Shown here: piece by piece, positions 2,236 to 10,435 of the stretch | Layout: every line of letters starts with the position of its first letter | Numbering within the stretch: position 1 is the stretch's first letter | Virus genome (UHGV): UHGV-1292143 | Direction: 5' to 3' (one strand) | DNA length: 22,583 nucleotides | From: a virus | Made by a program: the position numbers and the translations under genes | The notes under the pieces: model-generated | What the model was told of the DNA's origin: nothing | What the model saw: only the letters and a program-made list of their open reading frames with translations | Database searches by the model: none

Positions 2236-3495
2236 TTATTTGAATATATCAGTTATAGTTGGGTAATTATACATCTTAAGCTTATCTCTAAATTTCATAG
2301 AAAATATAGGGTCTACCTTACATCTGTGTAAGAGCTTTGCAATCCTTAGCTCCCTCTCATTCATAATATCTTTGTATTCGCTATCAATACTTTCCTGAAT
2401 TTGCTGATTCTCAACAGGAGACGGTTTAGTAATTTTATCCCATTGATAAGTTGGCTTCGTAGTGTAATTTAAACTATCATCATTTTGGAGTAATGCCTCA
2501 AGACGAGACTTAGCATTTTCATATAGCATTCTATCTTGGGGCAACATACTTGCAACACGCATTTCCATTTCAATTTCCGATACTATCATTTCAAGTTGAC
2601 GTTTTTCCGTTTCAATAGCTAAAAGAAATGGAAATAGGGCTTCTTGCTTAATCATTTGACAATTCAAATTATTGTTTATGCCACTAAGTAATTTTGTAAA
2701 TGAGAACTTCTTTAAAGGCTGCTGATTTATAACACTCTGTCTAACTGGCATTGTGTAGTTCGGTGTTTTTTCAAGTGTTTTCTTCACTTGCTCTATAGCA
2801 ACATTAGGAGTGTTGAAAACAGTCTTTGCTGGAATACGTAGCACCATAAACCCCTCCTTTATTGAATATTCATCACGAATACGATCTCGCTCTATTTGTT
2901 CTGGGGATGAATGCCATGCTGCACCATCAATTTCTATAATTTGGCGTCCATTTACGACAAAATCAAAACGATAACGCTTATAGGGCACTTGCATTTCAAG
3001 CACTAAGTCAGGAGAAACTAACATTCCAGATTTAGGTTTAAGATTAAACTCTGCAACCATTTTACGAAGAAATGCCTCCTCAGCCGGAGATTCGCAACCT
3101 TTGCAAAATATATCAAGCCAGTTTTCTGCGTCAGCGTCAACAGTTTGCCACCATGCTAACAGTCCACGTCGGTGTCCATATAATCGTTCATCTGACGGTT
3201 TTGTTAATGGCTTTGTTAACGGTTTAACTAAGGGTTCATTTAACGGCTTTAATAACGGCTTAAATAACGGCTTATTTAACGAATTTAATAACGATTTATT
3301 TAATGGTTTGATTGACGGTCTATTTGACGACTCAATCGGTGGTTTAGATGATGATTTGTTTTTTTTATCAAAACCTACGATAGTTATATATGCTACATAT
3401 AGCATCATGCCTGCAACAGGCCATACACATGGATAAATCACGTAACACAACAGTAATAGAACAATAGTCCCAAAAAATGTTAACTTCTTCCGCAT
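2236..3495 (-). CDS. membrane-anchored protein with DUF559/Vsr-like (PD-(D/E)xK-type) endonuclease-like domain (419 aa)
   Basis: N-terminus MRKK + hydrophobic hairpin (FFGTIVLLLLCYVIYPCVW / MMLYVAYITIVGF); Pro/Lys-rich tetrapeptide repeat linker; core YRFDFVVNGRQIIEIDGAAWHSSPEQIERDRIRDEYSIKEGFMVLRIP matches the DUF559 signature (RxDF ... IEIDG..H ... D..R ... G..VLR); C-terminal ~190 aa predicted helical, unknown. Confidence 0.6.
   Translation of the reverse strand: MRKKLTFFGTIVLLLLCYVIYPCVWPVAGMMLYVAYITIVGFDKKNKSSSKPPIESSNRPSIKPLNKSLLNSLNKPLFKPLLKPLNEPLVKPLTKPLTKPSDERLYGHRRGLLAWWQTVDADAENWLDIFCKGCESPAEEAFLRKMVAEFNLKPKSGMLVSPDLVLEMQVPYKRYRFDFVVNGRQIIEIDGAAWHSSPEQIERDRIRDEYSIKEGFMVLRIPAKTVFNTPNVAIEQVKKTLEKTPNYTMPVRQSVINQQPLKKFSFTKLLSGINNNLNCQMIKQEALFPFLLAIETEKRQLEMIVSEIEMEMRVASMLPQDRMLYENAKSRLEALLQNDDSLNYTTKPTYQWDKITKPSPVENQQIQESIDSEYKDIMNERELRIAKLLHRCKVDPIFSMKFRDKLKMYNYPTITDIFK
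3195..3356 (-). repeat. about 13 imperfect tandem 12-bp units inside the 2236-3495 CDS, encoding K-P-L-x tetrapeptide repeats
   Basis: Plus-strand units such as TTAATAACGGCT / TAAATAACGGCT / TATTTAACGAAT; translated on minus strand as LNKP LFKP LLKP LNEP LVKP LTKP LTKP. Confidence 0.8.
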
Positions 3496-3720
3496 ACCAA
3501 ACTCTTTGCATCAATAAAGGGGACTGGCTTATATAATCAAATCACATGCCCGAAATAAAAGATGACCAACACCAACGGAAATCACACTCTAAACTAATAT
3601 ACATTAACACTTAATATCGCCATCACAATTGATTGATTATGCTAATTTAAAAATGATATTTTTACAGAGAATATACAGCTCTACAAGATGACTATTACAC
3701 CAAAATTTAAAAAAATCATT

Positions 3721-3766
3721 GGCAACCTTGTAGAATTGATATTAACAATCGATTCTACGGGTTGCC
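3721..3766 (-). terminator. long inverted repeat (GGCAACCTTGTAGAAT-N15-ATTCTACGGGTTGCC) followed on the minus strand by a T-run; likely terminator of the 4874-3811 transcript
   Basis: 15-16 bp arms with one mismatch; minus-strand sequence after the hairpin is AATGATTTTTTTAAATTTTGG. The 15-nt loop is large for a terminator. Confidence 0.45.
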
Positions 3767-3810
3767 ATTTGCTACATAGAGTGTAATAAGAGAGGATGGT
3801 TCAACGGAAA

Positions 3811-4350
3811 TTACCACCAGCTACTGGCTTTTTTCTCCCTTGCTTTACCTTCGCTTTGCAATAAATCCTTACTCCCTGAAGAGATGTTACGATTTGCATC
3901 AGCTTCAGACTGAATCACATCAGTTCTTGCAGCCCTTTCCTTTAGCTCCTGCTCAATGAAATCGTTTTCTCTCTTAACTCGAGCAGCTTTCGCTTGTAGC
4001 TCAAGCTTCATTTTCTCAAGTTCTAATTTACGAAGCTCATCTTCATAAGCCTGATTTCGCTTTTTCTCTGCGGTCAATTCAGCTTCACGCTTCGCTCTGC
4101 GCTCATTTTCCGCCGCTATACGAGCTTTCTCGCGGGCATTTGCAGCTGCCGCAGCCCTCTCTCTTCTTAAACGTTCAGCATTTTCTTGCTTGCGAATTTG
4201 CTCTAGTCTGGCATCCTCCAGCTGCTGTTCTCTTGCTCGACCTTCACTTTCTGCCTGGGCAATAGCAGCTATTTGACTCTGCAATGAATTAGCAAATACA
4301 TTGCCTGTATTCAAAGCAGCCAAACATAAATAACAAATAATTTTCTTCAT
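3811..4350 (-). CDS. secreted highly charged ER/K-rich coiled-coil protein (179 aa)
   Basis: N-terminal signal peptide MKKIICYLCLAALNTGNVFA; mature part is E/R/K/A-rich helical (TolA-domain-II-like composition). Starts 11 nt after the stop of the upstream lipoprotein gene. Confidence 0.65.
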   Translation of the reverse strand: MKKIICYLCLAALNTGNVFANSLQSQIAAIAQAESEGRAREQQLEDARLEQIRKQENAERLRRERAAAAANAREKARIAAENERRAKREAELTAEKKRNQAYEDELRKLELEKMKLELQAKAARVKRENDFIEQELKERAARTDVIQSEADANRNISSGSKDLLQSEGKAREKKASSWW

Positions 4351-4361
4351 ATCTTATTGAG

Positions 4362-4874
4362 TTATTTTTTATCAGGACATGTAGCATTAGGTTGAATGCG
4401 CGTTTCGTTTTCTTTCGTTGAAATCAAAGCCGCGATTCCAGGGGCAAATTGGCAAGCTCTACCAACCTGTGTAGATGTATAGACTTTAGTACCTTCCTTG
4501 TAAGTAAGAGATACACCTTCAACAATTGATTTATCACTTACCATAGAACCAGCAGCTGCGCCAAGAGCTCCACCGCCAGCACCACCAGCAACTGCACCCA
4601 AGGTAGAAGTTCCTTTAATATTATATCCAGCAACACTACCAGCTACTGCACCGAGAACAGCACCGAAAGTCTGAGCTGCTTGTTTATTAGCTGTATTATC
4701 AACTTTTACTTTGGCTGGGAGAACAGAGATTATATTTACTACTCTTGTTTCTTGTTTTGAATTAAGTTGGGCTGTGTCGTACACATCTGCCGCATATTCA
4801 GCACCATTAGACTGACACCCTGAGAGAAAAATTGCAGAAACAACCATGACGCATAAAGAAGAAATTTTAGCCAT
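4362..4874 (-). CDS. SlyB/Pcp-like glycine-zipper outer-membrane lipoprotein (about 170 aa from the chosen start)
   Basis: Lipobox AIFLSG|C after a signal peptide; Gly/Ala zipper GAVLGAVAGSVAGYNIKGTSTLGAVAGGAGGGALGAAAGS; overall resemblance to E. coli SlyB. Start chosen at ATG 4872-4874 (MAKISS...); alternatives are 4883 or the track start 4934. Confidence 0.65.
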   Translation of the reverse strand: MAKISSLCVMVVSAIFLSGCQSNGAEYAADVYDTAQLNSKQETRVVNIISVLPAKVKVDNTANKQAAQTFGAVLGAVAGSVAGYNIKGTSTLGAVAGGAGGGALGAAAGSMVSDKSIVEGVSLTYKEGTKVYTSTQVGRACQFAPGIAALISTKENETRIQPNATCPDKK

Positions 4875-5163
4875 TAGAATCATCCCAGAAAAAAAATATA
4901 ATCCAAGAAAATCTATCACATAAGCCAAATACAAACAAGATTAATCCTATTGATGTATATCAATTATTATAAAAAATACGATCTTCATTGCTGAAGCTGC
5001 GTTATATTAAGTCTAAAAAAATCAACTATCGACATTATATGCTCTGCTAATAATTTACACTTGATTTAGTTGAGTTGGTTTAATATTGACACTAACTCAC
5101 TCTCTAATTATATACAATTTCCAATTTTATATGCGCATATATGGAAACCTATACCAACAGCAT

Positions 5164-5180
5164 GTTGCTCTAATAAATTT
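5164..5180 (+). promoter_or_regulatory. C1-repressor-type operator (P1 Op51-like) overlapping a promoter
   Basis: GTTGCTCTAATAAATTT, one mismatch to the P1 C1 operator consensus ATTGCTCTAATAAATTT as I recall it; TTGCTC acts as a -35 with TAAGTC 17 bp downstream (5188-5193). Confidence 0.6.
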
Positions 5181-5218
5181 GTCTTTTTAAGTCACGAATG
5201 CTATCTTTTCGCATCATA

Positions 5219-5247
5219 TTGACCTTTTAATCGTTCAGGCTTATAGT
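5219..5247 (+). promoter_or_regulatory. sigma70-type promoter for c4-icd-ant (-35 TTGACC, 17-bp spacer, -10 TATAGT)
   Basis: TTGACC at 5219-5224 and TATAGT at 5242-5247; sits downstream of the operator, as for the constitutive second promoter of P1 immI. Confidence 0.5.
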
Positions 5248-5367
5248 TCCGCCGTCGTAGCAAATTCTGCGACCGGGTTTAGCAGCCTGAATGATTGTGC
5301 GGACAGCCGCAGATATCCGATATTGCGGTATTTTTGTGTCCGTAAAACCGCGTTACGCCCAAATTAT

Positions 5368-5444
5368 GGTGGGACGTGATGGGGAGGCTTCGGCCTGCTG
5401 GTTTCACAATCGCCAGTCTGCTAACCCCGTCACGTCCTGCCACC
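5368..5444 (+). ncRNA. c4: C4-like antisense RNA (77 nt) of the immunity-I region
   Basis: GGTGGGACGTGATGGGG ... CCCCGTCACGTCCTGCCACC closes a long stem; internal hairpins AGGC-UUCG-GCCU and CUGG-UUUCACAAUCG-CCAG. Loop sequence CACAATC is complementary to GATTGTG at 5293-5299 and at 5477-5483, the latter just upstream of the icd GAGG Shine-Dalgarno (5483-5486). Confidence 0.55.
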
Positions 5445-5494
5445 TGTTTAGCAGCGGGTAGCAGGTTGTTAAACCTGATTGTGAGGCCGTAACT

Positions 5495-5716
5495 ATGGTT
5501 AATGCCAATCCTTACGCACGCCAAGAATTCATCTGGCGTTTCTATTCCTGTAAAAAACACCACTATCACTTCGTCATCGCAGCAACAGAAGACGAAGCAC
5601 GCTCTCAATTGCCTGATGGCCCCTGCATTTTTACTGCCCGTTTTTCAACTAACTCGCGCAATTCACTTAGTTACTGGAACCTCCCCTTCTCTGCCGACGT
5701 TCAGGGGGATTTATGA
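5495..5716 (+). CDS. icd: Icd-like small protein (73 aa), translationally coupled to ant
   Basis: 73-aa ORF whose stop overlaps the ant start (ATGA at 5713-5716); position downstream of c4 matches P1 immI organisation. Confidence 0.65.
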   Translation: MVNANPYARQEFIWRFYSCKKHHYHFVIAATEDEARSQLPDGPCIFTARFSTNSRNSLSYWNLPFSADVQGDL

Positions 5717-6747
5717 AAAAACCTCTCGTCACCCGTAATGAAATAGCCGAAGCGATCGCCCTGCATACAACCTGTATGCCGACACGGGAGATCCCCGGCG
5801 CAATTGCCAACTATTTCATGATAACCAGACGTTTTTATACCCGAACAGATAAGGCTGTGATCAACAAGCTACTGATAGCCGAGATCAGGGATTATTTGAT
5901 TGAACAAGGACGTCTACGTTACGCAACAGTGGCAGCAGAAATGAGAAAGGAGGCACACAGAGTGACCGGTAAAAATTTGAATATTGAAAAACCAGCACCT
6001 GTTACGTCAGCTACGCCAACACCAGCCGTGAATGTCATCCCCAACATCGGAGACACAATCGACAGCCAAACATTGTTGAAGATGGTCAATGAGGCACGGA
6101 AATTATGTAGCGAAAAACCAGTTCGCAATAATGATTTCATTGCCAGAGTTAAGGATGAACTTGAAGGAGAAACCTACGAAATTTTCGTAGGTCAAAAAAA
6201 CGGCGCAGAAATAGATATTATAACAATGACCTACAAACAAGCCCTGCGAGTTGCCGCGCGCGAGTCAAAAGCGGTCCGCCGTTCGCTGATCGACAAACTG
6301 GAAGAATTACAGCAGGCAAACTCCCCTACCCCATCGATCCCCCAGACATTACCAGAAGCCCTACGCCTGGCTGCCGAGTTAGCAGAACAGAAAATGCAGT
6401 TGGAACAACAGCTGGTGGCCGCAGCCCCTAAAGTCGATTTTGCCGACCGGGTATCAGTGGCCAATGGAATCCTGATCGGGAACTTTGCAAAGGTCGTTGG
6501 ACTTAAGCAAAACGCCCTTTTCTCATGGTTGCGCCAGAACGGCATTCTCATGGCTTTTGGTGCGCGCAAAAACGTACCGCGCCAACAGTACATCAACGCC
6601 GGGTATTTCACGGTGAAAGAAGTGGTGTTGGATGATGAAAATGGCTACCAGATACGGCTGACGCCCCAATTAACGGGTAAAGGCCAGCAGTGGTTAACTC
6701 GCAAGCTACTTGATGCTGGTTTGTTAAAACCAGTAGCAATAGGTTAA
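5713..6747 (+). CDS. ant: antirepressor Ant-like protein with C-terminal KilA-C/ANT domain (344 aa)
   Basis: C-terminal region PKVDFADRV...IGNFAKVVG...LFSWLRQNGIL...GYFTVKE...GKGQQWL is a KilA-C-type antirepressor domain; gene order c4-icd-ant. Confidence 0.65.
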   Translation: MKKPLVTRNEIAEAIALHTTCMPTREIPGAIANYFMITRRFYTRTDKAVINKLLIAEIRDYLIEQGRLRYATVAAEMRKEAHRVTGKNLNIEKPAPVTSATPTPAVNVIPNIGDTIDSQTLLKMVNEARKLCSEKPVRNNDFIARVKDELEGETYEIFVGQKNGAEIDIITMTYKQALRVAARESKAVRRSLIDKLEELQQANSPTPSIPQTLPEALRLAAELAEQKMQLEQQLVAAAPKVDFADRVSVANGILIGNFAKVVGLKQNALFSWLRQNGILMAFGARKNVPRQQYINAGYFTVKEVVLDDENGYQIRLTPQLTGKGQQWLTRKLLDAGLLKPVAIG

Positions 6748-7740: not shown

Positions 7741-8241
7741 ATGCTGGCTAAAGTCACTTTCCTGAGCTGTATAACGATGAGCGATTTTACTTTTTCTGGC
7801 TATGAATTGGCCTGCTTTGTAACACACTCCGGTCTATCCCGTAGCGCCGGGCATATCCTGTCGCAATGTGCAAATCTCGCGGCAACAACCAGTGAATACT
7901 TCATTCACAAGCCTCACCGCCTGATCGCGGCAGAAACTGGTTATAGCCAATCAACCGTCGTTCGTGCATTCCGTGAAGCTGTAAACAAAGGAATCCTGTC
8001 TGTAGAGATTGTTATCGGCGATCACCGTGAACGTCGCGCTAACCTGTACCGGTTTACACCATCCTTTTTGGCCTTCGCACAACAAGCCAAAAATGCGCTG
8101 ACTGAAAGCAAATTAAAGATCTCTTCAGCGGCAACCAAGGTTAAAGCTGTTATCGCTAAGACATTGGCTTTATTTAATTTTATATCCACACCCCATGTCA
8201 AAATGATACCCCCTCCCCCTGTCAGGATGACGTGGCAATAA
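7741..8241 (+). CDS. repL: RepL-like lytic replication protein, N-terminal reading frame (166 aa); appears truncated by a frameshift
   Basis: Immediately follows kilA as in P1; frame ends at 8239-8241 just after a CCCCCTCCCCCT tract. Confidence 0.55.
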   Translation: MLAKVTFLSCITMSDFTFSGYELACFVTHSGLSRSAGHILSQCANLAATTSEYFIHKPHRLIAAETGYSQSTVVRAFREAVNKGILSVEIVIGDHRERRANLYRFTPSFLAFAQQAKNALTESKLKISSAATKVKAVIAKTLALFNFISTPHVKMIPPPPVRMTWQ

Positions 8242-8585
8242 AGAATAAGAAGTCACAAGTTAAAAAAACAAAAAGATCAGTTTCCGGCGGTGCCGGAACG
8301 TCCAGACTCAAAAAATTGACTTCATGGATCGCTGAGGCAAAAGCAAAGGCTGACAATCTGCGGTTATCCCAAAAACGCGCTCAAAAACATGAGTTCAAGC
8401 AGAAAGTAGAGGCGGCTGCGCGGAAATATGCTTACCTGAAGAACAAGCGTTCGCCTGATATTGGCGGGATATCAAACTTCGATAACCTACCGCATTGCAT
8501 GACGGTAAACGAAGCTCTTAATGCGGTTTTAGCCAAAAATAAAGATAACGATCAATGGGGTATACCGGCGGGATTCAGAGGGTGA
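8232..8585 (+). CDS. continuation of repL in a different frame (117 aa), or a separate small basic protein
   Basis: Frame is open from 8178 with no ATG. Restoring 1 nt would fuse it to 7741-8241 to give 281 codons, the length I recall for P1 RepL. Confidence 0.4.
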   Translation: MAIKNKKSQVKKTKRSVSGGAGTSRLKKLTSWIAEAKAKADNLRLSQKRAQKHEFKQKVEAAARKYAYLKNKRSPDIGGISNFDNLPHCMTVNEALNAVLAKNKDNDQWGIPAGFRG

Positions 8586-8799
8586 TAGATTGCTCTAATC
8601 TGGAGTCACCTGGCGTTTTCAGTATGGATTTTCTTTGGCGCGGTCTGGCCATTAGGGATCATGTTTGCTGCAACGTTTCTTCTGATGTGGGTATTCACCC
8701 TTCCAGGTGATTTCTATAGAAAAAAAGCCAGACATTGATACAATCGCTGCGGGTGCTTGAGGCTATCTGCTTCAGGCATTACCCGAAAAGCAGATAGAA

Positions 8800-8871
8800 G
8801 AAAGCCCCAGATAACATTACGCGTCCTGCAAGACGCTTAACATTAATCTGAGGCAATATCTATGCTTAGCA
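8800..8871 (-). ncRNA. possible Sok-like antisense RNA
   Basis: Minus-strand promoter-like TTGACC (8901-8906) - 18 bp - TAATCT (8877-8882); the transcript would be complementary to the mok start region at 8862. Inferred from hok/sok architecture only. Confidence 0.3.
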
Positions 8872-9068
8872 TACGTAGATTAGCCTCTTACCGACCAAAA
8901 GGTCAAGGAGAAGCAGGCTATGAAGCAGCAAAAAGCGATGTTAATCGCTCTGATCGTCATCTGTTTAACCGTCATTGTGACGGCACTGGTAACGAGGAAA
9001 GACCTCTGCGAGGTACGAATCCGAACCGGCCAGACGGAGGTCACTGTCTTCACAGCCTACGAATCTGA
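8862..9068 (+). CDS. mok-like leader ORF overlapping hok in another frame
   Basis: 68-aa ORF starting upstream of hok and overlapping it, as in hok/mok/sok loci. Confidence 0.4.
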   Translation: MLSIRRLASYRPKGQGEAGYEAAKSDVNRSDRHLFNRHCDGTGNEERPLRGTNPNRPDGGHCLHSLRI

Positions 9069-9097: not shown

Positions 9098-10435
9098 CAT
9101 AAGCGCTAACTTAAGGGTTGAACCATCTGAAGAATGCGACGCCTCGGTGCCTCGTTAAGACGATGCCTCGCGTTCTTCAATTGCGTTTTGTAGGCTGTCA
9201 GGGATACTGTCCCACGAATGGCCACCTGTAAGCTCCAGATGACCATTTTTGTTATTCTCCACAACGAGTTAGTTCTTCTTTTCGGATCCGGCACTTCTGG
9301 GGGGGAAATCCAGCGATGGCTGGATTATGTCGTCAATTAAAAATGCGGCGAGTAGATTAGCAAATATCCACGCTTTCGCGAGTTCAGGTTCCTTTGCACG
9401 CAAAGCATCCAGGTGCAGCAAACTTTTGAGCCGCTTAAAAGCCAGTTCAATTTGCCATCGCAGACGGTAACAATCAGCCACTTGCTCTGCTGAATATTCA
9501 TCTTCCGGTAATGATGTTAGCAATAGCACATGGCCCGCTGCTTCCAGCGTTTCCGCCTGAACTACTCGTCCTTTTCGACGATTCTCGCTGAGCAGTCGGG
9601 TTTTACTGATTAATGCTTTTTCGGGAGGAAGTGATACGGCAATGAGACGTGCCGGAAAGGGAGCTCCGGCTTTTTTATTACCTGAATTGCCTATCATTAC
9701 AGTGGTTTCACCGTTCTTACCGCAATCCAGCCCGCGCAGAAAACCCATCATGTCAAAGCGCATTCCTTCTGCAGTTAACCAGCGCAATCCTCGCCAGTGA
9801 ACCCGGACGATATAATCAGCTTCTCCAAAAGCAAGTGAGCGGATACATTCGGGACGCGAACCGAATCCCCGGTCAGCAATGCGTATCTCGTCTGCCGTTT
9901 GCGCAAATCGGTCCAGCCGTTCAGCGTCTCTGCTGTCGGTTAGCTCAAAATCAGTGAACTGACAGGTATGAGGATCATATCCCATATGTAGTCGCCATTC
10001 AGCGCTGCCGCCCCCGGGCGCACTGATTGCTGTTCCATCGACAAGACGCAATCTCTTTCCGCTTGTACAACCCGTAACTGCGGCGCGTACAGCAAGTGTT
10101 TGTGCGGCAAGTATGCCAAACCAGTCGGCGGCATTCCGCAGCCGCTTCAGGAGAGCCACGTCAGATAATGTTGCAACGTCATGGAGCTGAGCCCATGCAG
10201 TGACTTCACGTAATGACATCCCCCCGGGCCGTAAGCCAGCCCCAGACGTAGCAGAGTTGCAGCATCACGAATTTCGCGGCGGCGGGTTAGAGCCCCGGCA
10301 TTACGTGCCGAAGTATCCAGTTCTTCGGGCTTACCAATATGGGCCAGAATTGCTGACCAGTTATCGTGAGAGTAATTCATCGGCACGTTAAATCATATCA
10401 GGCGTAATACCACAACCCTTAAGTTAGCGCTTATG
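9098..10435 (-). mobile_element. IS186-like insertion sequence (IS4 family), 1338 bp, with a 10-bp target duplication
   Basis: Perfect 23-bp terminal inverted repeats CATAAGCGCTAACTTAAGGGTTG; flanking direct repeat GGAGAGATCC (9088-9097 and 10436-10445) within a GGGG-N-CCCC target, typical for IS186. Confidence 0.85.
9269..10386 (-). pseudogene. IS186 transposase, split by a -1 frameshift in a G-run
   Basis: N-terminal 56 aa (MPMNYSHDNW...GPGG) and the 316-aa DDE body (MSLREV...YRLRWQIELAFKRLK) are in different frames. The junction is a C6 run at 10220-10225 (G6 on the coding strand); restoring one G makes a continuous ~372-codon ORF. Confidence 0.7.

What the first reader, a model, noticed from the sequence alone, without database searches (positions are those of the whole stretch)
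5164..5716. Complete immunity-I-type antisense circuit: 77-nt C4-like RNA with two complementary target sites
A 77-nt structured RNA (5368-5444) carries the loop sequence CACAATC, which is complementary to GATTGTG both upstream in the precursor (5293-5299) and again next to the icd ribosome-binding site (5477-5486). This is the arrangement by which C4 RNA blocks icd/ant translation in P1/P7. The specificity-determining loop sequences can be compared with P1 and P7 to predict immunity type.
Basis: partly seen in the sequence, partly recalled or inferred. Interest (0 to 1): 0.45.

Follow-up and report, generated by a model that had tools for sequence, protein, structure and literature searches.

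The report
P7-type C4 antisense immunity module
This is the well-known C4 antisense-RNA switch of phage P1/P7, here in its P7 specificity on a P1-like phage-plasmid; it keeps the phage's antirepressor silent during lysogeny, is real and intact, and is already textbook knowledge.

Summary
Window 5368-5444 (+) encodes a 77-nt RNA that hits Rfam C4 (RF01695, 69.8 bits against a cut-off of 45). The upstream a1/b1 motif (RF03163) is also found at 5241-5293. Region 5166-5720 is 99.3% identical to phage P7 immI and 94.8% to P1. The window itself is an IncY P1-like phage-plasmid.

Besides b' (UCACAAUC, 5404-5411; targets b1 5293-5299 and b2 5477-5484, which overlaps the icd Shine-Dalgarno) there is a' (CUGCUAA, 5418-5424; targets a1 5279-5285 and a2 5448-5454). 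All six sites are identical to P7. All differ from P1 by compensatory changes, so the predicted immunity-I type is P7.

The three-helix fold is supported by covariation in 73 distinct C4-like RNAs: 95% of cells paired, 18 of 28 pairs changed on both sides, 0 of 500 shuffles as good. The RNA-target pairing covaries as well. Own targets match in 64-78% of loci, against 1-3% for non-cognate ones.

Verdict: an already known element. It differs from P7 C4 by one stem substitution that preserves the pair. Interest is low.

Side observations: natural P1-like elements mix two a-types with five b-types, and repL downstream is frameshifted.

The parts
5164..5180 (+). C1 repressor operator (Op51 / Oc4), GTTGCTCTAATAAATTT
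   Evidence: Aligns with the annotated protein_bind features of P7 (L002 2999-3015) and P1 (L003 2999-3015); 15 of 17 positions are identical in all three. Homology to P1/P7 begins here.
5179..5207 (+). Promoter P2c4 (former P51a), overlapped by the operator. The window has a private A->C at 5183 in the annotated -35 (TTGTAT -> TTGTCT)
   Evidence: Mapped from the P1 annotation (L003 3014-3042) through alignment A1. The 5183 C is seen in 3 of 87 loci.
5219..5247 (+). Promoter P1c4 (former P51b): -35 TTGACC, 17-nt spacer, -10 TATAGT
   Evidence: It is the only sigma-70-like site found in 4900-6000 (10 of 12 matches) and coincides with the P1 annotation L003 3054-3082.
5241..5293 (+). c4-a1b1 structured leader motif (two hairpins; a1 lies in the loop of the second)
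   Evidence: Rfam RF03163, 55.5 bits against gathering 46.7, E = 9e-12, full length 1-53.
5279..5285 (+). a1 target site TTAGCAG (complement of a')
   Evidence: Maps to the P1 misc_binding a1 (L003 3114-3120). P7-type sequence.
5293..5300 (+). b1 target site GATTGTG(C) (7-nt complement of b')
   Evidence: Maps to the P1 misc_binding b1 (L003 3128-3135). Exact match. P7-type.
5368..5444 (+). Mature C4 antisense RNA, 77 nt. It starts with GGU and ends with CCACC. Helix 1 pairs 5368-5384 with 5425-5441; hairpin 2 is 5385-5396; hairpin 3 is 5397-5417
   Evidence: Rfam RF01695 at 5362-5447, 69.8 bits against 45. Equals the P7 c4 misc_RNA. Fold, covariation. It differs from P7/P1 C4 in the scaffold only at 5374 (G->A), which turns a G.U into an A-U pair with U5435.
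5404..5411 (+). b' recognition element UCACAAUC in the loop of hairpin 3
   Evidence: Unpaired in the MFE and in the consensus fold. Complementary to b1 and b2. P7-type.
5418..5424 (+). a' recognition element CUGCUAA in the single-stranded joint between hairpin 3 and the 3' strand of helix 1
   Evidence: Unpaired in the MFE. Complementary to a1 and a2. P7-type.
5448..5454 (+). a2 target site TTAGCAG, 4 nt after the C4 3' end
   Evidence: Maps to the P1 misc_binding a2 (L003 3282-3288). Exact match. The position is conserved across the family.
5477..5484 (+). b2 target site GATTGTGA, overlapping the icd Shine-Dalgarno GAGG (5483-5486)
   Evidence: Maps to the P1 misc_binding b2 (L003 3311-3318). 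Exact match. 8-nt complement to b'. Duplex -10.0 kcal/mol, against about -5 with the P1 target.
5495..5716 (+). icd (73 aa, cell-division inhibitor); its translation is the direct target of C4
   Evidence: ORF. 71/73 identical to P7 Icd. Annotated as Icd-like in the identical plasmid.
5713..6747 (+). ant1 (344 aa) with in-frame ant2 (probable GTG start at 5962): the antirepressor, the regulated output. Its start overlaps the icd stop (ATGA)
   Evidence: 93% identical to P7 Ant1. Pfam ANT/KilAC, 1e-30. The P7 ant2 start maps to 5962, where the window has GTG instead of ATG.

Best explanation
This is the immI (secondary immunity) operon of a P1-family phage-plasmid, with phage P7 specificity. 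From promoters controlled by the C1 repressor (operator 5164-5180), one transcript carries a structured leader with sites a1/b1, then the C4 RNA, then sites a2/b2, icd and ant1/ant2. The 77-nt C4 RNA (5368-5444) is cut out of this transcript; in P1/P7 the 5' cut is made by RNase P. Its two single-stranded elements, b' (hairpin-3 loop) and a' (joint region), pair in trans with b2 and a2 on the same kind of mRNA. Because b2 overlaps the icd ribosome-binding site, icd translation is blocked. Because ant expression depends on icd translation (overlapping stop/start here; in P1 also through premature transcription termination), antirepressor is not made and C1 keeps the prophage quiescent. Since a'/b' and all four targets are identical to P7 and differ from P1 by compensatory changes, this element should give P7-type immI immunity. 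It should silence an incoming P7-type ant operon, but a P1-type one less well or not at all. Shown here: sequence identity, fold, covariation of fold and of RNA-target pairing, intact icd/ant. Inferred from published P1/P7 work: processing, translational block, coupling to ant, immunity phenotype.
For: Rfam C4 and c4-a1b1 are above gathering scores. The region is 99.3% identical to P7 immI, with the c4 annotation on exactly 5368-5444. All six a/b sites are identical to P7 and compensatorily different from P1. The fold is stable, z = -5.9. RNAalifold on an independent MAFFT alignment of 73 distinct C4-like RNAs gives the same three helices: 95.3% of cells paired, 18 of 28 pairs changed on both sides, 0 of 500 shuffles reaching this, and slid controls at 30-50% paired. 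In 87 P1-like loci, a1/a'/a2 and b1/b'/b2 always change together, with one exception. In 55 non-redundant a'/b' combinations, a perfect complement of at least 7 nt in the locus's own downstream region occurs for 78% (b) and 64% (a), against 3.4% and 1.1% for non-cognate pairs, at fixed distances from C4. Cognate b'/b2 duplex is -10.0 against about -5 kcal/mol. icd and ant1 are intact. The host replicon is IncY with P1 tail-tube, repA and parAB neighbours. Mechanism as summarised in PMC5320573 and PMC8198154.
Against: There is no expression or processing data for this element, so function rests on homology. The element may be partly defective, because repL is frameshifted; whether it still runs a lysis/lysogeny decision is unknown. 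Two private substitutions (5183 in the P51a -35, 5374 in helix 1) are untested. A second a-like site (TAGCAGG, 5459-5465) pairs with a' about as well as a2 does and is also present in P1 mRNA, so a' alone may not discriminate P1 from P7 targets. The homolog set for the fold test was retrieved with a pattern that fixes GGGG, TTCG and GCCGGTTT, so helix 3 and parts of helices 1-2 could not vary on the 5' side by construction.
Confidence: 0.95

Rival explanations
1. The module is an inert relic. The phage-plasmid is defective (locked in the plasmid state) and the C4 circuit no longer regulates anything useful.
For: repL, the lytic replication initiator just downstream, carries a 1-nt deletion in a C-run that splits it into two ORFs. 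No CDS is listed there in the identical plasmid. P1-like plasmids with modified or lost ImmI and repL are documented (PMC6906374).
Against: Every functional element of the circuit is intact and matches P7: operator, both promoters, a1/b1, C4, a2/b2, SD, icd and ant1. The single change in C4 preserves pairing. Icd and Ant/KilA are toxic or destabilising if derepressed, so C4 would stay under selection even in a defective prophage. The frameshift may be a homopolymer sequencing error.
Confidence: 0.04
2. The immunity specificity is not P7-type but P1-type, hybrid or new.
For: Natural P1-like elements do carry hybrid and additional types. Of 87 loci, 11 are a(P1)+b(P7), 8 are a(P7)+b(P1), and there are three further b-types.
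Against: In the window all six sites are letter-for-letter those of P7. It falls in the commonest class (32 of 87 loci), which includes P7 itself.
Confidence: 0.01
3. The 5290-5490 stretch encodes a small protein (c4 was once annotated as a CDS) and the complementary heptamers are coincidental.
For: Mechanical ORFs overlap it (5291-5461 +, 56 aa; 5376-5492 +, 38 aa; 5279-5608 -, 109 aa). An old P1 record annotates c4 as a CDS (X15639). The heptamer count across the window equals chance.
Against: Variation among homologs is confined to the a/b elements and is compensatory between RNA and targets. Stems covary. Covariance-model hits are above the curated thresholds. Published work showed that c4 acts as an RNA (Citron & Schuster 1990, cited).
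Confidence: 0.005

Closest known systems
Phage P7 c4 / immI operon (AF503408, c4 51057-51133)
   Same: Same architecture and coordinates: operator, two promoters, a1/b1, 77-nt C4, a2/b2, icd, ant1/2. All six recognition sites are identical. 99.3% DNA identity over 5166-5720.
   Different: There are four nucleotide differences in 5164-5500, of which the first two lie in the operator's variable 5' end. G->A at 5374 in helix 1 turns G.U into A-U, and A->C at 5183 lies in the P51a -35. Icd has 2 aa changes and Ant1 is 93% identical with a 4-aa deletion. The Ant2 start codon is GTG instead of ATG. The left flank is different.
Phage P1 c4 / immI operon (AF234172, c4 48343-48419)
   Same: Same scaffold, same positions of all elements, same downstream genes; 94.8% identity.
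   Different: Heteroimmune specificity. P1 has b' CACUAAC with b1/b2 GTTAGTG, and a' CUGUCAA with a1/a2 TTGACAG. The window has the P7 versions. P1 has the sim genes on the left flank.
Rfam C4 family RF01695 and c4-a1b1 RF03163 in other phages and prophages (D6, lambdoid prophages with isrK, others)
   Same: Three-helix fold, UUCG-capped hairpin 2, variable b' loop and a' joint, conserved CCACC 3' end. The a2 site lies 4-13 nt and the b2 site 33-43 nt after the RNA, and a1/b1 lie upstream.
   Different: Different a'/b' sequences and different downstream genes: D6 has a Roi-like antirepressor, and L089/L090 have an isrK-type leader instead of c4-a1b1.
C4-like sRNAs of Acinetobacter baumannii (PMC5320573)
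   Same: Same Rfam motif, apparently processed from longer transcripts at a GGW site.
   Different: They are multi-copy chromosomal sRNAs with unknown targets, not part of an icd-ant immunity operon.

Membership tests
C4 antisense RNA (Rfam RF01695) | Covariance-model score above the curated gathering threshold over the full model | tested here: met
   69.8 bits against 45, model positions 1-87 of 87, E = 5.6e-12 at 5362-5447 +.
C4 antisense RNA (Rfam RF01695) | Three-helix fold (long closing helix, UUCG hairpin, second hairpin) supported by covariation | tested here: met
   MFE fold z = -5.9. RNAalifold on 73 distinct homologs gives the same fold. 95.3% of cells paired, 18 of 28 pairs with double-sided changes, 0 of 500 shuffles, slid controls 30-50%. 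Caveats: within the P1-like group itself the stems are invariant, and the retrieval pattern fixed part of helix 3.
P1/P7 immI antisense circuit | Two single-stranded elements a' and b' complementary to a2 and b2 downstream on the same transcript, with b2 at the icd ribosome-binding site | tested here: met
   a' 5418-5424 with a2 5448-5454 (7 nt). b' 5404-5411 with b2 5477-5484 (8 nt), overlapping SD GAGG 5483-5486, ATG 5495.
P1/P7 immI antisense circuit | Upstream duplicate targets a1/b1 in a structured leader (Rfam RF03163) | tested here: met
   RF03163 55.5 bits against 46.7 at 5241-5293. a1 5279-5285, b1 5293-5299. a1/b1 covary with a'/b' family-wide.
P1/P7 immI antisense circuit | RNA-target complementarity maintained by compensatory change among homologs | tested here: met
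   2 a-types x 5 b-types in 87 P1-like loci, always matched (one exception). Cognate against non-cognate match rates are 64-78% against 1-3% in 55 combinations.
P1/P7 immI antisense circuit | C1-controlled operator/promoter upstream; icd and ant1/ant2 downstream with translational coupling | tested here: met
   Operator and promoters align with the annotated P1/P7 features. Icd is 97% and Ant1 93% identical to P7. The icd stop overlaps the ant1 start (ATGA at 5713-5716). Coupling itself is inferred.
P1/P7 immI antisense circuit | Processing of the precursor to a 77 +/- 1 nt RNA by RNase P (GGW at the 5' end, CCA-like 3' end) | not testable with these tools
   The sequence features are present: GGU at 5368-5370, CCACC at 5440-5444, and the CCACC is nearly invariant in the family. 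The published basis is summarised in PMC5320573. No RNA data are available.
P7 immunity-I specificity class | a', b', a1, b1, a2 and b2 identical to P7 and different from P1 | tested here: met
   Alignment A1. The window falls in the class of 32 of 87 loci that includes P7.
P7 immunity-I specificity class | Repression of P7-type but not P1-type ant expression in vivo (heteroimmunity phenotype) | not testable with these tools
   Only duplex energies could be computed: b' cognate -10.0 against about -5 kcal/mol. a' of P7 type can also pair with a second site present in P1 mRNA.

The most novel reading that the evidence does not exclude
The window's circuit is ordinary, but the comparison set suggests that P1-family phage-plasmids carry a combinatorial repertoire of immI specificities. 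At least two a-types and five b-types assort freely (eight matched combinations, including natural P1/P7 hybrids), so antisense-RNA immunity would diversify by module shuffling much as repressor/operator specificities do. The window lineage adds two private changes: a -35 change towards consensus in P51a, and a G.U -> A-U change in helix 1. With a frameshifted repL, these might mark tuning of C4 dosage in a plasmid-locked element. I found no paper in the searchable library that catalogues these types, but the older subscription literature and the D6 genome paper could not be read.
Probability: 0.3. Interest if true: 0.35.

Novelty: already known. Interest (0 to 1): 0.1.

Why it matters
For annotation, it identifies the window as a P1-family phage-plasmid with P7-type secondary immunity. 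It also flags an RNA gene and four target sites that protein-centred pipelines omit; the RefSeq-derived table for the identical plasmid lists nothing between the membrane-protein gene and icd. Biologically it adds nothing new about mechanism. The by-product is mildly useful for predicting which P1-like resistance-carrying phage-plasmids exclude one another: strict three-way covariation of a1/a'/a2 and b1/b'/b2 across many loci, with free assortment of a- and b-types.

Tried and rejected
1. Chance test of the heptamers. GATTGTG occurs 4 times against 3.75 expected, and TTAGCAG 7 times against 3.06, so raw counts are not evidence and the argument was moved to position, structure and covariation.

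2. Stem covariation inside the P1-like group. There are only 9 distinct C4 sequences in about 88 loci and the stems are invariant, so this was uninformative. More distant C4s had to be fetched with a core pattern from viral contigs. About a dozen of those matches were not C4 and were filtered out.

3. Genome-contig scan with Icd. It returned only 4 loci, one of them a doubtful 44% match in a Phycisphaerae MAG (L007) with no C4 hit. Not pursued.

4. First assumption from the plasmid hits, that this was a conjugative plasmid that had captured a phage module. Rejected: the replicon is IncY, with P1 tail-tube, repA and parAB genes.

5. Primary papers (Citron & Schuster 1992 PMC312442; Heinrich 1994 PMC196329; Lobocka 2004 PMC523184) are not held. 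The mechanism is therefore cited through secondary summaries and my own knowledge.

6. A second a-like site, TAGCAGG at 5459-5465, was considered as a real extra target. It is not conserved in the ACGAATG-type loci, so it was treated as probably fortuitous.

7. The terminator scan found none in 4900-6000. This is consistent with C4 being released by processing rather than by termination, but it is not evidence for that.

Full report
**1. What is in the sequence**

The stretch 5164-5716 reads as the first-stage reader said. GATTGTG is on the + strand at 5293-5299 and 5477-5483, and its complement CACAATC is at 5405-5411. The second GATTGTG runs into AGG (5484-5486), and an ATG at 5495 opens a 73-codon ORF ending at 5716.

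The 77 nt at 5368-5444 fold into a long closing helix that encloses two hairpins. The energy is -45.5 kcal/mol, z = -5.9, and none of 200 shuffles folds as well. CACAAUC lies in the 9-nt loop of the second hairpin.

The heptamer count by itself is not above chance in the window: 4 found, 3.75 expected. The case therefore rests on arrangement, structure and comparative evidence.

**2. Identity**

A scan of the whole window against Rfam at gathering thresholds gives three hits:
- C4 antisense RNA (RF01695) at 5362-5447 +, 69.8 bits against a cut-off of 45, full model.
- c4-a1b1 (RF03163) at 5241-5293 +, 55.5 bits against 46.7.
- sok at 8751-8925.

BLAST against phage genomes shows that 5166-5720 is 99.3% identical to phage P7 and 94.8% to P1. 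The P7 record's c4 misc_RNA (51057-51133) maps exactly to 5368-5444, and its C1 operator maps to 5164-5180.

The window as a whole is 100% identical to a set of roughly 90-100 kb E. coli plasmids typed IncY. P1 tail-tube homologues lie on one side, and parB, parA and repA at the far end. It is therefore a P1-family phage-plasmid, not a conjugative plasmid that captured a phage module, which was my first thought on seeing the plasmid hits.

**3. Full anatomy**

The richly annotated P1 record was mapped through the three-way alignment:

| Element | Window coordinates | Sequence or note |
|---|---|---|
| Operator Op51 | 5164-5180 | GTTGCTCTAATAAATTT |
| Promoter P51a / P2c4 | 5179-5207 | overlapped by the operator |
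| Promoter P51b / P1c4 | 5219-5247 | TTGACC-17-TATAGT; the only sigma-70-like site found by the scan |
| a1 | 5279-5285 | TTAGCAG, in the loop of the second hairpin of the c4-a1b1 motif |
| b1 | 5293-5300 | GATTGTG(C) |
| C4 RNA | 5368-5444 | 77 nt |
| b' | 5404-5411 | UCACAAUC |
| a' | 5418-5424 | CUGCUAA |
| a2 | 5448-5454 | TTAGCAG |
| b2 | 5477-5484 | GATTGTGA, overlapping the Shine-Dalgarno GAGG |
| icd | 5495-5716 | 73 aa |
| ant1 | 5713-6747 | start overlaps the icd stop (ATGA) |

Icd is 71/73 identical to P7 Icd and Ant1 is 93% identical. Ant1 carries the KilAC/ANT domain.

**4. Immunity type**

P1 and P7 differ at each of the six sites, and the differences compensate one another:

| Site | P1 | P7 and window |
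|---|---|---|
| b1/b2 | GTTAGTG | GATTGTG |
| b' | CACUAAC | CACAAUC |
| a1/a2 | TTGACAG | TTAGCAG |
| a' | CUGUCAA | CUGCUAA |

The window is identical to P7 at all six sites.

Computed duplex energies are -10.0 kcal/mol for cognate b'/b2 and about -5 for the non-cognate pair. The predicted immI specificity is therefore P7-type.

One nuance concerns a'. A second a-like site (TAGCAGG, 5459-5465) pairs with P7-type a' about as well as a2 does, and it exists in P1 mRNA too. It is not conserved in other P1-like types, so I regard it as fortuitous.

**5.

Within P1-like elements the scaffold is invariant. There are only 9 distinct C4 sequences in about 88 loci, and all variation lies in a'/b' plus two stem positions that keep pairing. 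This says nothing either way.

I therefore fetched more distant C4-like RNAs from viral contigs with a core pattern, filtered out non-C4 matches, and aligned 73 distinct sequences with MAFFT.
- RNAalifold, which was not given any structure, returns the same three helices, with 18 of 28 pairs showing double-sided changes.
- Counting on that structure gives 95.3% of cells paired and a covariation score of 0.449 against 0.204 in shuffles. No shuffle out of 500 reaches the observed value on any of the five measures.
- Sliding the 3' partners by 1-3 columns drops pairing to 30-50%.

Caveat: the retrieval pattern fixed GGGG, TTCG and GCCGGTTT, so the 5' strand of helix 3 could not vary. MAFFT also slightly misplaces a gap in hairpin 2 for the P1-like rows, which accounts for most of the "unpaired" cells there.

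**6. Covariation of the RNA-target pairing**

In 87 P1-like loci retrieved through Icd there are two a-types (TTAGCAG, TTGACAG) and five b-types (GATTGTG, GTTAGTG, ACTTACG, ACGAATG, ACTTGTG). In every locus but one, b1, b' and b2 carry the same type, and a1, a' and a2 carry the same type.

The a- and b-types assort freely, giving eight matched combinations. These include a(P1)+b(P7) in 11 loci and a(P7)+b(P1) in 8. The window's class, a(P7)+b(P7), is the commonest at 32 loci and contains P7 itself.

I then extended the test to 55 non-redundant a'/b' combinations, including distant C4s. The table gives the share of loci with a perfect complement of at least 7 nt:

| Pairing | Own locus | Non-cognate loci |
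|---|---|---|
| b' with downstream region (b2) | 78% | 3.4% |
| a' with downstream region (a2) | 64% | 1.1% |
| b' with upstream region (b1) | 69% | 2.0% |
| a' with upstream region (a1) | 71% | 2.2% |

Positions are fixed: a2 lies a few nt after the RNA and b2 about 33-43 nt after it. The upstream a1/b1 sites are thus conserved by selection as strongly as the downstream ones, although their role is less clear in the literature. The P1 record itself calls them "putative".

**7. Mechanism**

The following is established knowledge for P1/P7. It is cited from summaries that I could read (PMC5320573; PMC8198154; PMC8546580) and from my own knowledge of Citron & Schuster 1990/1992, Hartmann et al. 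1995, Riedel et al. 1993 and Biere et al. 1992, which are not held in the library.
- c4, icd and ant are co-transcribed from C1-controlled promoters.
- C4 is processed to 77 +/- 1 nt, with RNase P making the 5' end at a GGW motif.
- The a' and b' elements pair with a2/b2, and b' partly occludes the icd ribosome-binding site.
- ant expression depends on icd translation.
- Ant1/Ant2 antagonise the C1 repressor, and Icd blocks cell division.

The window has the sequence prerequisites for each step: GGU at 5368, CCACC at the 3' end, b2 over the SD, and an overlapping icd stop and ant1 start. None of the steps was or could be observed here.

**8. Differences from P7**

In 5164-5500 the window differs from P7 at four positions:
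- Two lie in the variable first two bases of the operator.
- 5183 is A->C in the annotated -35 of P51a (TTGTAT -> TTGTCT, one step closer to TTGACA).
- 5374 is G->A in helix 1, which converts a G.U into an A-U pair with U5435.

The last two changes are private to this plasmid lineage (3 of 87 loci). Icd has C7Y and G72D, and the Ant2 start codon is GTG rather than ATG. None of these changes alters the interpretation.

**9. Rivals**

- A protein-coding reading of the c4 region (mechanical ORFs; an old CDS annotation in X15639) is excluded by the RNA-type covariation.
- A non-P7 specificity is excluded at sequence level.
- The element may be defective, because repL is frameshifted. This does not make the circuit inert, since all of its parts are intact and its targets are toxic if derepressed.

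**10. Verdict**

The finding is real, correctly interpreted, somewhat incompletely described, and already known. It is the P7-type C4/immI module, one stem substitution away from the reference. Interest is low.

The only mildly new material is the catalogue of freely assorting a- and b-types among natural P1-like elements. I could not find it described in the searchable library, but it may well exist in literature I could not read.

Noticed in passing
window 7741-8586 (frameshift near 8191): repL, the lytic replication initiator (98.5% identical to P7), has a 1-nt deletion in a C-run: CACACCCCCATG becomes CACACCCCATG. This splits the 281-aa protein into ORFs 7741-8241 and 8232-8585. No CDS is listed here in the identical plasmid. 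It is either a genuinely plasmid-locked element or a homopolymer error shared by many records.
   Followed up: partly
window 8751-8925 (+) and following: A hok/sok type I toxin-antitoxin locus (Rfam sok, 114 bits; hokD CDS in the identical plasmid) starts just after the point where P7 homology ends (about 8599, right after the operator downstream of repL). It occupies the position of P1 rlfA/rlfB. An IS4-family/DDE transposase ORF (9269-10219, minus strand) follows.
   Followed up: partly
loci L004-L087 (P1-like immI regions from viral and genome contigs): immI specificities are modular. Two a-types and five b-types occur in eight matched combinations, including natural P1/P7 hybrids: a(P1)+b(P7) in 11 loci and a(P7)+b(P1) in 8. 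D6 is a(P1)+b(ACTTACG).
   Followed up: yes
L016:1-460 (IMGVR_UViG_2565956613_000015): This is the one locus where C4 does not match its own target. b1 and b' are ACGAATG-type but b2 is GTTAGTG (P1-type), with a crossover between a2 and b2. It is either a naturally derepressed recombinant or an assembly chimera of two co-resident elements.
   Followed up: partly
window 5962-5964: The Ant2 internal start codon is GTG here (ATG in P7), preceded by a strong AAGGAGG. Ant1 also has a 4-aa deletion and a cluster of substitutions around residues 150-175 relative to P7.
   Followed up: no
window 5183 and 5374: There are two substitutions private to this plasmid lineage (3 of 87 loci). A->C in the annotated -35 of promoter P51a moves it towards consensus. 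G->A in C4 helix 1 turns a G.U pair into A-U.
   Followed up: partly
window 5459-5465: A second a-like site, TAGCAGG, lies 5 nt after a2 and pairs with P7-type a' as well as a2 does (-8.8 kcal/mol). It is also present in P1 mRNA but not in the ACGAATG-type loci, so it is probably fortuitous.
   Followed up: partly
window 2236-4934 (minus strand): The left flank of immI differs from both P1 (sim genes) and P7. It holds a DUF5384 protein (3811-4350) and a glycine-zipper/TraT-like lipoprotein (4362-4934) in the position of P7 upf50.0/50.5. In addition, a 419-aa DUF559/REase_MTES_1575-like protein (2236-3495) sits between them and the tail-tube genes.
   Followed up: no
L089:514-709 and L090:1417-1496: In lambdoid-type contigs the C4 RNA is preceded by an isrK-family leader (Rfam RF01394) instead of c4-a1b1, with P1-type a sites and a different b' (UCUUUGUG / CACAAAGA). 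b1 there pairs only with a G.U wobble.
   Followed up: no
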